Assembly: GCA_944389225.1 (NCBI GenBank)
Contig: CALXLP010000004.1
Coordinates: 7,314-71,313, forward strand
Reading direction: 5' to 3'
Length of the DNA: 64,000 nt
DNA from: an uncultured Clostridia bacterium
Lineage (GTDB): Bacteria; Bacillota; Clostridia; TANB77; CAG-508
The position numbers were made by a program, and so were the translations under genes. Positions 58,919 through 63,600 of the stretch are shown piece by piece; the stretch's first letter is position 1; every line of letters begins with the position of its first letter. The notes below the pieces were generated by a model. That model saw only the letters and a program-made list of their open reading frames with translations. It made no database searches and was not told the DNA's origin.

Positions 58919-61900
58919 GTTTACGAGAGAGAATATTAAGAATCTATACTATTATAAATAATGTAATAAAAAATATTAAAAATGAAAAGAAAAAAGTCTA
59001 CGCAAAAAAGGAAAAAATGAATTCAGAAAAATGATAAAGAATATAAATAAGAAAAAAAGAACAGTAAACATAAAACTAAAATAAAGTCAATGGAAAACAA
59101 TAATATAATTAAAAGAGAAAAAAGATTTTAATGCAAAAAGAAGAAGAGAAAAAAGTAAAGTAAAAAATAATATAAAAAAAGAATAATAAAATTACAAAAA
59201 AGAAATTAAAATAGAAATAAAAAAAATATTAAATAAAAAATAAAATAATAAGTAAAATAAAAAAATTATTAATAAAAAAAATAAATATAAAAATATAAAA
59301 AATTTAATAGAAAATAAAAAGAAAAAAATTATAAAAAAATAATTAATAATTAATTTAAAATTAATTATTAATTAAATAAATTATGAAAAAAAGAAAAAAT
59401 TGAAAAAAGAAAAAAAATAAATAATTATTTAATTATTTAAAATTTTGAATAGTGTATAAAAAGTAAAAAAAAAATCAAATAAACAAAAAAGATGAAATTA
59501 ATGAATATAATTTAGTTTTAAAAATAAATTAAAAGTTTACTATAAAAAATAAAAATATAAATATAAGAGTAAAAACAGAAAATAAAAATGTGAAAAAAGA
59601 ATTTTAAAAGACTACGCATAGAAGTAGAAAGAAAAAAATAAGTTAGATGAAAAAGAAATAGATATAGAATGTGCTTAGGTAGACATAAATTTAAATAAAG
59701 ATATAAAATTTCTTCTAAAAAACATGGAAAAGAATTCTAAAATTTGATTTATAAAAAAGTATATATACATATATATATGGAAAATAAAAAAATAAATAAA
59801 AGAAATTTAATAATAATATAGAAAAAATAATTAAAATGAAAAATATTAAATAAAATAAAAAAACATAATAAAAAAGAATAAATAAAAAATATTATAAAAT
59901 AAAAATATTTTTATAATATTAAATAAATAATTAAAAAAAATAATTAATATTAAATAAAAAATAATTAAGAATAAAAAATCAAAGCATTAAAATGAAAAAT
60001 AAAGTAATTTTATTTTTTATTAATATATTTTTATTATCAAAATATTAATAAATAAATAATAAAAAAAGAAAAAAATAAATAAAAATAAAAAAGTAAAATA
60101 AACAGATAAAAAAGAATAAAGTGTAGAAATAGAATTAGATTAAAAAATATATTTTTAAAGTTTACATGAAAGAAGAGAAATAAACAAAAAAGAAAGAATA
60201 ATTTTATAAAGAAACTTGAAATGTAAAATTGAAATACCTAGGCATAAAAGGAAAAGATCAAAAAGTATAAAATTAATAAAGTTTGAAATTAAAAAGATAC
60301 AAAGGAAACATAAAGTGAAAATAAAATAAGATAAAAACTTTATTTTGTATAAGAAAATGAAGTAGCAAAAGGATAAATTTAATAAAGAAATAATTAAAAT
60401 TAAAAATTAAATAAACAAAAAACAACGATTAAAAAGTTATAAAAAATAAAGTATAAAAAAATAATAAATCAAAAAATAAAATATAAAAAAATAAAATATA
60501 AAAAATAATAAATAATAAATAATATAAATATAAAAAAATAATATTAAATAATAATAAATAAATATTAAATTAAAATTAAAAAAAATAATAAAAAAATAAA
60601 ACATTAAAATAAAAAATAAGACGATTTTATTTTTTATTAATATATTTTTATTATTAAAAAATATTAATAAAACAAAAAATAATTTATAAAAAATAAATAA
60701 AATATAAAAAGAATAAAAATAAATAGCTAAAAGAAATTGAAGAAAAAAAACAGTTAAAGAGAGATCCTTAAGAAAAAAATAATTTAGAAGAGCATGAAAT
60801 AGAAGTTTACATGTAAAACAGAATGCAAAAAGAAAACATCAAGAAAAAAGGAAGAAAAAGTAAAAAAATAAATACGAAATACTTAGGCAAAAAAGAACAT
60901 GAGCTTAAAAATAGAAAATTGGATATGATGTAAAAACAGAAAAACCAAGTAAACATAAAATAAAAATAAAATTTGTAAATATAGTATAAAAATAGAGAAG
61001 AAGTGTAAAAAAATAAGGAAAAAATATTAATAGTTAATAGAAACAGGAAGAAGAATTTTTTAGAAAAATTTTCTGAAAAAATTTAGAATAAAAATATAAA
61101 ATAAAAAATCAATAATAAATAAATAGAAAATAAAAAAACAAGTAATATATAAAATAATAATAATAATAAAATAAAATTATTAAAACAAAAAATAAAGCAA
61201 TTTAATTTTTTAATAATATATTTTTATGATTAAAAATAGAAATATGATTTATAAATAATTAATAAAAATTATTTTTTAAAATTAATTAATAAAAATAAGT
61301 ACAAAAAATACCATAAAAAAAGAATTAAAAAATAGAAATAGAAAAAAATTAGAATAAAAGAAATAAGTATATTAAATATAATTAAAATGTGAAAAAGAAA
61401 AAAATCCCAAAAAAGTTGTAATAGAAAATACAAAATAAAGGTTTACAAAAAAAATAAATATTAGGAGGGGATAATATTTTTATAGGAAGAAAAGATAAAA
61501 AAATAAAAGGATAAACACCTAGGTAAAGAAGAAAAGAAAATAAATGTACATCAATAAAAATGAAAAAATAACATGTAAAACGAAGTAAACATAAAAACAA
61601 AATAAAGTTTTATAATAATGCAATTAAATAAAAAGAAAAAAATAAAAATTCAGAAAGATAATATAGAAAAAAGTAAAAAAAGAGAAAAAATATTAGAAGG
61701 AATTCTAAGAAAATATAAAAAAATAAATAATAAAAATTAAATATGAATTAATAATTAAATAAAAAATATGAAAAAATAAAATTATTAAAATAAAAAATAA
61801 AATAAATTAAATTTTTAATAATATATTTTTTATTAAAACTATATTATATAAATAATTAATAATAATTAAAAAATTAAAAATTAAAAATAATATAAAAATT

Positions 61901-63600
61901 TATATAAAATTCTAATTAATAATAAAAAATGAAAATTATGAAAAAATAAGAGGAAAAGAAAAAAGTAATGAAAAATAAGAAATATAGAAACGAGAAAAAA
62001 ATGAATCCTGTCAAATATTTATTTGAAATCAAAATACAAAATAAAAGTTTACAAAAAAAATAAAATAATAATAATAAAATATAAAAATATAAGCAATGAA
62101 AAGTAAAAAAAGAAGTAATAAAAGCCTAGGTAAAAAAGGAAAAGACAGAAAATAATAAAATTCAAACTAATTTAAAAAGTAAAAAAACAGAGTAAAAATA
62201 AAGCAAAAATAAAATCTATGTATTTATAGATAAAATAAAGAAAAAGGATTATTTATTTTTTTAGAATCTATAAAGAATAAAATAAATATAACTAAAATAT
62301 TAATAAATAGAAAAATAAAAATAAATAATAAAAGAGAATAATAAACAATTAATTATGAAAAATAAATAGTTAATAAAAAATAATAAAAAAATAAAATCGT
62401 TAAAATAAAAAATGAAGTAATTTAAATTTTTAATAATATAGTTTTATTATTTAAAATTTATAATAAAAATAATTTTAATTAAAAAATAATTAATAAAAAA
62501 ATTATTATTTTTAAATAAATAAATAATAATTTTTTATAAAATTAAAATAAATTAATATTAAAAATAAAAAAATTAGGAGAAAAAGTTTTTATAGATTCAA
62601 AGAGTTAAATAAAAAAGAAATAGGAAAACAAAAAAAGTTTTACATTCAAAAAATTGTGAAATAAAAGTTTACAAAAAGATAAAAAAATAAAATAGAAAAA
62701 GTAAAATTATAAAGGTTTATAATAAAAAACAGAAACATATCTACTTAGGTAATAAAGGAAAAGAAAAAATATATTTAAATAGAAAATAAAAAGAGAAGAA
62801 AATCAACAAGGTAAACATAAAATGGAAATAAAGTTACAATAAAATGAGAATATATCTTATAGAAAAGTGTATTGATCATAAAAATATGAATAAAAAGATA
62901 TTAAAAATAATCTTTGAAATAAATATGTTTATTAAAGAAATAATCTAATAATAAATAGAATTTAATAAAAAAATAAAAATAATTTAATTTAATAATAAAA
63001 AATAAAATTAAAATAAAAAAATTCATATATAAAATTATATATATGAGATTTTATAAATAAAAATAAAAAATAATAAATAATAATTAATAATATTTTTTTA
63101 TAAAAAATAAATTAATATTAATTAAAAATAATATATAAAAATAATTTTATTAATTTATATAAAAAATATAAATAAAAATATAAAAAATTTTAGAAATAGT
63201 TAAAAATAAAATAATAAAAATAAATGGCAATTTGTAAAGAAATAAAAATTAAATGAGAAAAATAAAAAAAGAAAAAGAAGATTTTATAAAAATATTTTAA
63301 AAGTTTACAAATAAAACATTAGAATCAAATAAAAAAAGAAAAAAATTCTAAAAAAAGAACTATAAAAAACGTCTGAAATACTACGTAAAAAAGGAAAAGA
63401 TAGAAAATGTAAAAAATAAGTTATTCATAAATTAACAAAAAGATAAGTGAACATAATTTGAAAATAAAATTTATAAAACTTTTAAGAAACTAGATAATTA
63501 CTATAGAAAAAGAATAAATTTTACTATGAAAATTAGAATTTTATTTAGTAAAAAATCTTGAATAATATAAAGCAAATAACAATAAAAAATAATTTAAAAA
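58919..63600 (+). repeat. tandem array of eight degenerate ~625-bp A-rich units (strongly C-depleted on plus strand)
   Basis: Unit anchors AGTTTAC at 58919, 59535, 60160, 60805, 61441, 62047, 62667 and 63303. Each is followed ~78 nt later by C(C/T)TAGG/CTACG-YAAAAAAGGAAAAGA, then ~55 nt later by GTAAACATAAAA...AAATAAAGTTT. Six of the eight units also carry an A/T hairpin plus T-tract motif AAG(A)CGATTTTATTTTTTATTAATATATTTTTATTA 360-470 nt downstream. Confidence 0.8.

What the first reader, a model, noticed from the sequence alone, without database searches (positions are those of the whole stretch)
58919..63600. 4.8-kb tandem array of ~625-bp hyper-A-rich units with three conserved sequence islands: possible array of small transcription units or a novel satellite
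Eight head-to-tail units start at 58919, 59535, 60160, 60805, 61441, 62047, 62667 and 63303. Each opens with (A)AGTTTACA. At a fixed +78 nt each has the palindromic C(C/T)TAGG or CTACG followed by YAAAAAAGGAAAAGA, which looks like an RBS. Then comes GTAAACATAAAA (the reverse complement of the opening GTTTAC, about 150 nt away, so a potential long-range stem) and AAATAAAGTTTT. Most units also contain an A/T-only hairpin plus T-tract (AAGACGATTTTATTTTTTATTAATATATTTTTATTA) about 360-470 nt downstream. Between the islands the sequence is almost homopolymeric A with scattered G and T and essentially no C on the plus strand, so it is not coding in any frame. The regular spacing, fixed offsets and strand polarity suggest repeated transcription units (promoter-like box, then a conserved 5' element, then a terminator-like hairpin) producing A-rich non-coding RNAs. 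Alternatively it is a degenerate tandem duplication of a small AT-rich gene, or a structural DNA element. The array lies about 10 kb from oriC on the leading strand.
Basis: seen in the sequence. Interest (0 to 1): 0.75.

Follow-up and report, generated by a model that had tools for sequence, protein, structure and literature searches.

The report
Non-coding tandem array with conserved boxes
This is a real run of eight ~620-bp non-coding repeats, variable in copy number between strains, in an uncultured low-GC gut Clostridium; every repeat keeps the same three short sequence boxes while the rest mutates freely, so it looks more like repeated protein-docking sites on DNA than RNA genes, but its function is unknown.

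Summary
Eight head-to-tail units (606-645 bp) start at the stated coordinates, are 62% A and 3% C on the plus strand, and are non-coding. Independent metagenome assemblies reproduce the array at >=99.7% identity, so it is not an artefact. It fills the gap between a decaying ParA-like gene and a conserved 239-aa gene, inside an old split-VirB4/ParA-like block fixed between gyrB and gyrA, about 10 kb from oriC. At least ten related species carry arrays of 4-9 units of 0.6-1.4 kb at the same place; more distant relatives have none. In 45 tabulated units GTTTAC is invariant, ACATAA nearly so, and a YTASGYAA box lies exactly 69 bp upstream of ACATAA in eight species. The rest is at shuffled-sequence similarity. 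Copy number changes by homology and microhomology recombination. My best guess (about 0.35) is an array of sequence-specific protein-binding DNA modules upstream of the 239-aa gene. Function is untested.

The parts
58919..63624 (+). The tandem array: 7 full units plus a final truncated unit that ends at the start codon of the 239-aa gene
58912..59089 (+). Unit 1 three-box module. I1 GTTTAC at 58919; I2 CTACGCAA with its T at 58999; I3 GTAAACATAA at 59064
   Evidence: nhmmer hit
59528..59697 (+). Unit 2 module, the most degenerate. I1 at 59535; I2 CTACGCAT with its T at 59613; I3 GTAGACATAA at 59679
60153..60328 (+). Unit 3 module. I1 at 60160; I2 CCTAGGCA at 60237; I3 GGAAACATAA at 60304
60800..60975 (+). 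Unit 4 module. I1 at 60805; I2 CTTAGGCA at 60882; I3 GTAAACATAA at 60949
61436..61612 (+). Unit 5 module. I1 at 61441; I2 CCTAGGTA at 61518; I3 GTAAACATAA at 61585
62042..62218 (+). Unit 6 module. I1 at 62047; I2 CCTAGGTA at 62125; I3 GTAAAAATAA at 62192
62662..62837 (+). Unit 7 module. I1 at 62667; I2 CTTAGGTA at 62744; I3 GTAAACATAA at 62811
63296..63472 (+). Unit 8 module, the last one, 322 nt upstream of the ATG of the 239-aa gene. I1 at 63303; I2 CTACGTAA at 63381; I3 GTGAACATAA at 63447
59968..60054 (+). H element (A-tract, short loop, T-tract, TAATATA) in unit 2.
60587..60662 (+). H element in unit 3
61165..61241 (+). H element in unit 4
61765..61851 (+). H element in unit 5 (weak)
62384..62457 (+). 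H element in unit 6
51548..51746 (+). Two further H elements (51548-51623 and 51661-51746) outside the array, in the hyper-A-rich dnaN-recF spacer. They show that H is a dispersed element, not a part specific to the array unit
57815..58825 (+). Left flank: 336-aa ORF at 10% GC with clear period-3. It is a degenerate descendant of a ParA-like ATPase and has lost the Walker A motif
63625..64000 (+). Right flank: start of the conserved 239-aa gene of unknown function (runs off the window). Every array in every species ends 320-650 nt upstream of it

Best explanation
The region is a non-coding, copy-number-variable tandem array. It arose in one lineage of uncultured low-GC gut Clostridia, in the spacer between a decaying ParA-like gene and a conserved 239-aa gene. 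Both genes belong to an old split-VirB4 / ParA-like block fixed between gyrB and gyrA, next to oriC.

Each unit has two parts. The first is a ~150-180-bp module of three short boxes: I1 AAAGTTTAC, I2 YTASGYAA followed by AAAG, and I3 AGTAAACATAA...AAATAAA. The second is 0.45-1.2 kb of fast-evolving A/T-rich filler.

Shown: the boxes are held by purifying selection in every copy and in every species, while everything else has drifted to background similarity. The I2-I3 distance is rigid. The array grows and shrinks by ordinary homology and microhomology recombination.

Inferred: the boxes are docking sites for one or more sequence-specific proteins on double-stranded DNA. The array would then be a series of operator-like or architectural nucleoprotein modules lying upstream of, and probably acting on, the 239-aa gene. 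One candidate binder is the Xre-type HTH protein that was gained in the same lineage on the other side of that gene.
For: - Real and reproducible.
- Non-coding.
- Distribution: arrays of 4-9 units at the same position in at least ten species (W, B, C, D, E, F, G, H, I, J). They are absent from about 17 more distant relatives, in which the two flanking genes abut.
- Conservation against a saturated background: GTTTAC is kept in 45/45 tabulated units and ACATAA in about 43/45. Whole units are 0.57-0.68 identical, against 0.571 +/- 0.015 for shuffles.
- Syntenic W-F unit pairs: I1 is 90% identical (97% of its non-A bases), I2 74%, I3 72%, inter-box 63%, filler 58%.
- Other spacers are still alignable between W and B: 0.74 identity against 0.52-0.59 for shuffles.
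- Spacing: I2-to-I3 is 69 bp (+/-1) in eight species, although the sequence between them is not conserved. In species D it is 11 bp shorter and again constant. I1-to-I2 is 78 in 27 units and 88 in 8/8 units of G and H. Shifts of 10-11 bp equal one helical turn.
- No RNA fold and no Rfam match.
- An HTH_3 gene sits directly after the 239-aa gene in all array-bearing species and in none of the array-less relatives' loci.
Against: - No binding protein has been identified.
- The boxes lack clear dyad symmetry. I1 is at best an imperfect TAAAaGTTTA palindrome.
- I1-to-I2 spacing is not constrained in species I (71-80), D (52-68) or E. Phasing therefore rests on two single lineage shifts, plus a marginal, uncorrected Rayleigh test (p about 0.045).
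- All units share the orientation of the flanking genes and are A-rich and C-poor on the sense strand. An RNA-level role fits this equally well.
- A 395-bp deletion that removes I1 and I2 of one unit is carried by strains from at least four samples, so single modules are dispensable.
- The co-occurrence with the HTH gene is one phylogenetic event. The HTH gene's own conserved upstream region shows no shared box.
Confidence: 0.35

Rival explanations
1. Repeated small transcription units. Each unit would have its own promoter at or near I1, a conserved 5' element, and an A/T hairpin terminator, and would yield an A-rich non-coding RNA of about 450 nt.
For: Strict head-to-tail polarity, co-oriented with the neighbouring genes. 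Boxes at fixed offsets. I1 contains TTTACA in 29 of 45 units; this hexamer is the -35 element of TcdR/BotR-type clostridial sigma factors (PMC4031146). The 3% C content would make an untranslated RNA a poor Rho substrate (inference from my own knowledge).
Against: No -35/-10 pair at a constant offset on either strand in 35 units. Promoter-like sites are not enriched and there are 0 terminator-like sites. No GTTATA-type -10 lies 14-22 nt after GTTTAC in any array locus. The hairpin element is missing from most units and species, folds weakly, and also lies upstream of recF. No consensus structure. No Rfam family. Genuine terminators in this genome have G/C stems.
Confidence: 0.2
2. The whole array is transcribed as the long leader or intercistronic part of the mRNA that runs into the 239-aa gene. 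The boxes would be single-stranded RNA motifs (I1 and I3 both read AGUWWACA on the sense strand), recognised repeatedly by an RNA-binding protein or a ribonuclease.
For: The sense strand is A-rich and C-poor, as in other spacers on both replichores, where the A-rich strand follows gene direction. The last module always sits 320-650 nt upstream of the 239-aa gene. In relatives without the array, the two flanking genes are adjacent in one operon-like block. The unstructured RNA prediction fits a single-stranded target.
Against: A rigid 69-nt distance between two motifs, with 10-11-nt jumps between lineages, is easier to explain on a DNA helix than on an unstructured RNA. A small inverted repeat with a T-run follows the ParA-like gene at 58873-58887. 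There is no candidate RNA-binding protein in the locus.
Confidence: 0.15
3. A selfish or recombination-driven satellite. The boxes would be sites of a site-specific recombinase (att-like or Xer half-site-like), and units would be gained and lost by that enzyme, with no benefit to the cell.
For: In the 7-unit strain L006 the crossover between units 4 and 5 falls inside I3 (AAGTAAACATAAAA), although longer identical stretches exist elsewhere in the two units. AGTTTACAT(G/A)A and AGTAAACATAA resemble one arm of the Bacillus subtilis dif site (recalled from memory, not tested).
Against: In species F the 395-bp deletion joins at a 10-nt A-rich microhomology outside the boxes, and an 84-bp indel lies in filler. 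No integrase or recombinase gene appears in any gene table within +/-10 kb. There is no second inverted arm next to I1 or I3, so no complete 28-bp Xer-type site. Units within an array are saturated with substitutions, so they were not recently mobilised. No match to plasmids or phages.
Confidence: 0.08
4. Decayed tandem duplicates of a small AT-rich gene, with each unit being a dead gene together with its former promoter and leader.
For: The adjacent 336-aa ORF is itself a decaying gene at 10% GC that has lost its Walker A motif. The array has the same composition. Unit length would fit a gene of about 200 aa.
Against: No period-3 signal. Stops occur in all frames and no conserved ORF exists on either strand. 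Dead genes would not keep three boxes invariant in 45 copies across ten species while everything else is randomised.
Confidence: 0.05
5. An assembly artefact, or mere low-complexity self-similarity.
For: Short-read metagenome assemblies. Several contigs break at the array, for example L141, L008-L010 and the species C fragments.
Against: Identical 4.8-kb structure in at least five independent assemblies from two cohorts. Units are too divergent from one another (about 60%) to be collapsed or expanded by an assembler. The periodic boxes have zero chance expectation: 0 of 200 shuffles matched.
Confidence: 0.01

Closest known systems
Iterated protein-binding arrays next to partition genes (plasmid centromeres such as F sopC, R1 parC; iterons) - comparison from my own knowledge
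   Same: Direct tandem repeats lying immediately beside a ParA-family gene. Each repeat carries a conserved recognition sequence. Copy number is variable, and the array is non-coding.
   Different: Units are 0.6-1.4 kb rather than roughly 10-50 bp. The ParA-like neighbour has lost its ATP-binding motif. No centromere-binding protein is recognisable. The array is chromosomal and lies within an operon-like block. Relatives with an intact ParA-like gene have no array.
Phased multi-operator or looping modules (for example the GalR-HU repressosome, or class I activator sites at one-turn intervals) - from my own knowledge
   Same: Two or three short boxes spread over about 150 bp, with non-conserved DNA between them. 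One distance is rigid, and lineage changes come in steps of 10-11 bp.
   Different: The module is repeated 4-9 times in tandem. No core promoter is identifiable. No binder is known. I1-to-I2 spacing is loose in three species.
E. coli LDR-type long direct repeats and other type I toxin-antitoxin tandem loci - from my own knowledge
   Same: About 0.5-kb head-to-tail intergenic units with internal conserved signals.
   Different: There is no conserved small hydrophobic ORF. Minus-strand ORFs starting at the CAT of I3 run 0-49 codons with stops at different places. No antisense RNA structure is present, and the units are highly diverged.
Tandem sRNA gene arrays (for example Listeria LhrC1-5) - from my own knowledge
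   Same: Polar head-to-tail repeats in a spacer.
   Different: No promoters, terminators, conserved fold or Rfam match. The units are five to ten times longer.
Origin-proximal titration loci (datA, DnaA-box clusters) - from my own knowledge
   Same: A non-coding cluster of repeated sites about 10 kb from oriC.
   Different: No exact DnaA box in the array, and one-mismatch hits are not periodic. No parS either.
Bacterial VNTR / minisatellite
   Same: Head-to-tail repeats whose number differs between strains: 7 or 8 in W, 8 or 9 in F. Change occurs by unequal recombination and slippage.
   Different: The unit is very long. The units are not homogenised. Instead they show a mosaic of invariant boxes in otherwise randomised sequence, conserved across species.

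Membership tests
Known structured RNA family | Match to a curated covariance model | tested here: not met
   Rfam at gathering threshold finds only two tRNAs in the window. A permissive search of 58700-63700 gives one chance hit at E = 8.
Known structured RNA family | Conserved secondary structure with compensatory changes | tested here: not met
   RNAalifold on 13 modules of two species predicts 0 pairs. The GTAAAC arm varies while GTTTAC is invariant.
Autonomous sigma-70 transcription unit | -35 and -10 hexamers at a constant position in the units | tested here: not met
   At most 20% (+ strand) or 14% (- strand) of 35 units score at any one offset. Promoter-like sites are not enriched over shuffles.
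Autonomous sigma-70 transcription unit | Intrinsic terminator (G+C stem followed by a T-run) | tested here: not met
   0 sites in 57500-64000. The A/T hairpins fold at -6 to -10 kcal/mol with inconsistent structures.
Autonomous sigma-70 transcription unit | Discrete transcripts | not testable with these tools
   No expression data are available.
TcdR/BotR group-5 sigma promoter | -35 element TTTACA (PMC4031146) | tested here: inconclusive
   GTTTAC is present in 45/45 units, but the sixth base is A in only 29/45; the others are C, G or T.
TcdR/BotR group-5 sigma promoter | -10 element GTTATA or similar, about 17 nt downstream | tested here: not met
   GTTTAC-N14-22-GTTAWA is absent from all array loci.
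Type I toxin-antitoxin / LDR repeats | Conserved small ORF in each unit | tested here: not met
   Three-frame translations of the minus strand of 13 units show ORFs of 0-49 codons, not conserved. Plus-strand ORFs are absent.
Integron cassette array | attC with RYYYAAC...GTTRRRY cores, and an integrase gene nearby | tested here: not met
   GTTTAC does not fit GTTRRRY, and the order of the boxes is reversed (read). No integrase appears in the gene tables.
Xer/dif-type site | Two inverted 11-bp arms around a 6-8-bp centre | tested here: not met
   Only one arm-like half is present at I1 and at I3. The flank is A-rich, with no TTATG-type partner (listing).
Plasmid-type centromere | Lies next to a ParA-family gene | tested here: met
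   The 336-aa neighbour descends from a ParA-like protein (phrog_164 for the L043 homologue; synteny). The P-loop is lost in W and B.
Plasmid-type centromere | Short iterated repeats bound by a cognate centromere-binding protein | tested here: inconclusive
   The unit length of 0.6-1.4 kb is far outside the known range. No ParB-like or RHH gene is present. The 239-aa protein has no family match.
DnaA-box cluster / parS | Repeated TTATNCACA or TGTTNCACGTGAAACA | tested here: not met
   No exact DnaA box in the array, and the six one-mismatch hits are not periodic. No parS.
CRISPR array | 23-50-bp repeats with similar-sized unique spacers, plus cas genes | tested here: not met
   The boxes are 6-20 nt, spaced 600 nt or more apart, and there are no cas genes in the tables.
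Invertible promoter (inverton) | Conserved inverted repeats flanking the segment, and both orientations present in populations | tested here: not met
   The inverted repeat is only 6 bp and is not kept in species B. More than 20 assemblies all show one orientation. Minority orientations could not be examined.
VNTR / minisatellite | Head-to-tail units | tested here: met
VNTR / minisatellite | Copy-number polymorphism among strains | tested here: met
   W has 8 units, or 7 in L006. F has four structural variants.

The most novel reading that the evidence does not exclude
The array could be a previously undescribed kind of bacterial chromosomal cis-element: an origin-proximal series of phased multi-box nucleoprotein modules. 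Each module would bind or wrap a protein complex over about 150 bp, separated by very easily melted A/T filler. It would sit between gyrB and gyrA inside a domesticated conjugation/partition gene block. It might act as a centromere-like, topological or dosage-buffering element for that block, rather than as a simple operator.
Probability: 0.12. Interest if true: 0.8.

Novelty: new variant of a known kind. Interest (0 to 1): 0.5.

Why it matters
Bacterial genomes are thought to carry very little long non-coding repetitive DNA. Here a 4-5.4-kb spacer, larger than most operons, is maintained in at least ten species of an abundant but uncultured gut lineage. Selection is visible only on about 30 of every 600-plus base pairs.

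If the boxes are protein-docking sites, the locus is a natural array for identifying a new DNA-binding specificity. It would also allow study of how repeated sites next to the origin affect expression, topology or segregation.

If the boxes act in RNA, the locus would be an unusual multi-site, unstructured, A-rich regulatory RNA.

In either case the array is a ready-made strain marker (VNTR) for these organisms. It also explains why assemblies of this lineage tend to break between gyrB and gyrA.

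Tried and rejected
- Long-range RNA stem between GTTTAC and GTAAAC: rejected.
- RBS plus small ORF after box 2: rejected. GGA is not conserved, there is no start codon, and stops occur early (read also).
- Minus-strand hydrophobic peptide running from the CAT of I3 to the TTA of I1: intact only in unit 4 (49 aa) and broken elsewhere.
- Phased A-tract curvature: no 10-11-bp periodicity in base composition.
- Sigma-70 promoter at a fixed offset: none.
- TcdR/BotR-type promoter: -35-like only, no -10.
- Terminator role for the A/T hairpin: weak, inconsistent, and a dispersed element.
- DnaA-box or parS cluster: none.
- Site-specific recombination at the boxes: one junction lies in I3, but other junctions lie at microhomology in filler, and there is no recombinase gene.
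- Origin from a phage or plasmid: no hits in viral contigs, phage records or plasmid records.
- Shared operator between the HTH gene's own promoter region and the boxes: the one similarity, in W, is not conserved in B or C.
- One-to-one orthology of units between species: only the edge units are weakly syntenic between W and F, and none between W and B.
- Strict helical phasing of all three boxes: holds for I2-I3 but not for I1-I2 in species D, E and I.
- Function of the 239-aa neighbour: no hit in Pfam, PHROGs, NCBIfam, PADLOC or PDB sequences.
- Literature searches for comparable bacterial arrays returned nothing relevant.

Full report
**1. The observation**

Reading 58000-64000 and a motif census confirm the finding.
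- GTTTAC occurs on the plus strand at exactly the eight stated positions and nowhere on the minus strand of the array. Start-to-start spacings are 606-645 bp.
- Composition of 58919-63600 is A 62%, T 26.5%, G 8%, C 3%.
- Tandem Repeats Finder cannot see a 620-bp period. The repeat finder recovers families at 576-645-bp spacing, and an eight-way alignment shows the islands.
- A profile HMM built from the first ~175 bp of the units hits eight times in the 64-kb window (E = 1e-12 to 1e-17). All hits are in the array.
- There is no period-3 signal. The neighbouring ORF 57815-58825, with the same 10% GC, has a strong one. On the plus strand only one ORF reaches 40 aa.
- The array lies about 10 kb right of oriC. 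DnaA-box clusters are at 48041-48251 and 49726-49882, and the skew minimum is near 47-48 kb.

**2. It is not an artefact**

The exact protein of the upstream ORF is found on 16 metagenome contigs.
- At least five contigs span the array, and they match the window at 99.7-99.98% over all 4.8 kb.
- One strain (L006) has seven units. Its fourth unit is a clean hybrid of units 4 and 5.
- Units are only about 60% identical to one another, so an assembler could not have collapsed or expanded them.

**3. Context**

The gene order is dnaA, dnaN, recF, gyrB, then a split VirB4-like conjugation ATPase (173 aa and 514 aa; NCBIfam CD1110 family). Next comes the 336-aa ORF, then the array, then a 239-aa gene. 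After that lie an Xre-type HTH gene on the other strand, a 93-aa gene and gyrA.

A scan of one genome per species with GyrB shows that the organism is an uncultured low-GC gut Clostridia lineage.
- The block gyrB, split VirB4, ParA-like gene, 239-aa gene, gyrA is conserved across the whole clade.
- In relatives the ParA-like gene has normal composition and a P-loop, and ends a few dozen bases before the 239-aa gene.
- In the window it has lost the P-loop and drifted to 10% GC.
- Beyond gyrA lie DnaC-like, DnaB_2 and coupling-protein-like genes. The whole neighbourhood therefore looks like an ancient, fixed remnant of a conjugative element.

**4. Distribution of the array**

I label the species as follows: W is the window species, B is L011, C is L092/L093/L097, D is L107/L108, E is L109/L110, F is L115-L123, G is L134-L137, H is L138, I is L142 and J is L143.

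| Species | Units | Unit length |
|---|---|---|
| W | 8 (7 in one strain) | 606-645 bp |
| B | 5 | about 690 bp |
| C | at least 5 | about 735 bp |
| D | 5 | 631-720 bp |
| E | 5 | 604-690 bp |
| F | 8-9 | about 530-650 bp |
| G | 4-5 | 864-1375 bp |
| H | 4 | 971-1148 bp |
| I | 6 | about 640-740 bp |
| J | at least 7 | about 570-650 bp |

- All these arrays lie between the same two genes, and all these species have the HTH gene after the 239-aa gene.
- Relatives at 88% GyrB identity or less have no array and no HTH gene at the locus.
- Only two places in the window are hyper-A-rich non-coding DNA: the array and the dnaN-recF spacer.

**5. Anatomy from comparison**

In 45 tabulated units, GTTTAC (box I1, usually TTAAAAGTTTACA) never varies. 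Box I3 (AGTAAACATAA, then AAAAATAAA) keeps ACATAA in about 43. Box I2 is YTASGYAA followed by AAAG: CTACGTAA in most species, CCTAGG/CTTAGG in W, F and J, and CTATATAA in D.

Outside the boxes:
- Units within an array are 0.57-0.68 identical, against 0.571 +/- 0.015 for shuffled sequence.
- No one-to-one orthology survives between W and B. Only the edge units are weakly syntenic between W and F.
- In those W-F pairs I1 is 90% identical (97% of its non-A bases), I2 74%, I3 72%, inter-box DNA 63% and filler 58%.
- Other spacers are still alignable between W and B: 0.74 identity against 0.52-0.59 for shuffles.

The boxes are therefore under purifying selection in every copy, and the rest turns over quickly.

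**6. Spacing**

The distance from the T of TASG to the A of ACATAA is 69 (+/-1) in W, F, B, C, G, H, I and J, with unconserved sequence in between. In D the same interval is 11 bp shorter and again constant (49-51 against 61 with the TAA anchor).

I1-to-I2 spacing:

| Species | I1-to-I2 spacing |
|---|---|
| W, F, B, C (27 units) | 78 (+/-1) |
| G and H (8/8 units) | 88 |
| I | 71-80 |
| D | 52-68 |
| E | loose |

- A Rayleigh test of the D and E I1-I3 distances at 10.3-10.5 bp gives p about 0.045, uncorrected. That is only suggestive.
- The rigid I2-I3 pair is not explained by coding. All three frames between the boxes hit stops early (read in the sequences).

**7. What it is not**

- RNA structure: RNAalifold finds no pair. 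The proposed stem partner varies without compensation. Rfam has nothing.
- Promoter and terminator: no fixed sigma-70 promoter on either strand and no terminator-like site.
- I1 contains the TTTACA -35 hexamer used by TcdR/BotR-type sigma factors (PMC4031146). The matching -10 is absent, and the sixth base is A in only 29 of 45 units.
It also occurs twice upstream of recF in the window, three times there in B, and once each in D and E. It folds weakly. Real terminators in this genome have G/C stems.
- There are no DnaA boxes or parS, no conserved peptide, no phased A-tracts, and no similarity to phages or plasmids.

**8. Dynamics**

- In W the one-unit loss recombined within the 14 nt of identity in I3.
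- In F, four structural variants exist.
- One is a 395-bp deletion, joined at the 10-nt microhomology AAAAATATAA. It removes I1 and I2 of unit 4 and occurs in at least four samples. An 84-bp indel lies in filler.
- These are ordinary homology or slippage events. No recombinase gene is nearby. Single modules are dispensable.

**9. Most likely mechanism**

Three features argue for recognition of short specific sequences by protein:
- invariant short boxes in randomised sequence;
- a rigid inter-box distance that changes by one helical turn between lineages;
- the absence of any fold, ORF or canonical transcription signal.

The 10-11-bp steps favour double-stranded DNA as the target. I therefore read each module as an operator-like or architectural nucleoprotein site, and the array as a tandem duplication of such a site upstream of the 239-aa gene. 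The co-acquired HTH protein is a candidate binder. This last step is inference only, and I give the whole reading about 0.35.

RNA-level recognition within a long leader (0.15) and unit-wise transcription from non-canonical promoters (0.2) remain open, because expression could not be examined. The recombination-site satellite (0.08) and dead-gene (0.05) readings fit the data less well.

**10. Comparison with known systems, and verdict**

- In behaviour the array is a bacterial VNTR.
- In position it recalls centromere-like repeats beside parA, and origin-proximal titration loci.
- In box geometry it recalls phased operator modules.
- It fails the defining tests of sRNA arrays, type I toxin-antitoxin repeats, integron cassettes, Xer sites, CRISPR, DnaA-box clusters and invertons (see the membership table).

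I file it as a new variant of tandem cis-element arrays. It is of moderate interest: it is real, conserved and unexplained, but it is confined to a narrow lineage and so far has no demonstrated function.

Noticed in passing
L092 2840-10880 (species C); also L141 4425-6236: A diversity-generating retroelement sits between the HTH gene and gyrA in some array-bearing species. It has a reverse transcriptase (YMDD; Pfam RVT_1 in L141), a bAvd accessory gene and a MutS_I-domain gene. It also has two near-duplicate prepilin-type genes whose C-termini differ.
   Followed up: partly
window 51067-51819: The dnaN-recF spacer is the only other hyper-A-rich non-coding stretch in the window (GC 10.6%, A 62%). 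It is bracketed by pairs of DnaA boxes (51103/51126 and 51810/51833). It carries two copies of the H element about 100-270 nt upstream of recF. It is conserved and even longer (about 1 kb) in related species, and replaces the small gene usually found there.
   Followed up: partly
window 57815-58825: The 336-aa ORF has 10% GC yet a strong period-3 signal. Homologues in relatives are ParA-like ATPases with an N-terminal receiver-like part. In this lineage the Walker A motif is gone and identity to the sister species is only 62%, so the gene seems to be decaying or changing function.
   Followed up: partly
window 55475-57822; L125 12635-16720: A VirB4-like conjugation ATPase is split into 173-aa and 514-aa genes. 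Beyond gyrA lie DnaC-like, DnaB_2-domain and coupling-protein-like genes. All are conserved in position across the clade. This looks like an old conjugative-element remnant fixed around gyrA next to the origin.
   Followed up: partly
L001 16924-17065 (and L011 21064-21200, L092 2212-2350): About 140 nt upstream of the HTH gene are almost identical in three species whose other spacers have diverged (AAAAACCGACAGACC...GCGTATGA...TATGCAAAAAGCAA...GCTAACAAAAACAACA). This may be a conserved leader or operator.
   Followed up: no
window 58873-58887: A small perfect inverted repeat, GAAGAA-AGC-TTCTTC, followed by a T-run lies between the stop of the 336-aa ORF and the first unit. It may be a weak terminator that separates the upstream genes from the array.
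   Followed up: no
L131 253-1604: On one low-coverage contig a 206-aa ORF lies directly in front of the 239-aa gene, with no array between them. It could be a variant, a partial duplication or a mis-assembly.
   Followed up: no
L011 about 21290-21340: Species B has a direct duplication, GAATTTAGAAAAAAGTTTAAAAG x2, downstream of the HTH promoter region. It partly resembles the left side of box I1.
   Followed up: no
L141 1-172; L008-L010; L093, L097: Many contigs of this lineage end inside or at the edge of the array, so the array is a recurrent assembly breakpoint between gyrB and gyrA.
   Followed up: no
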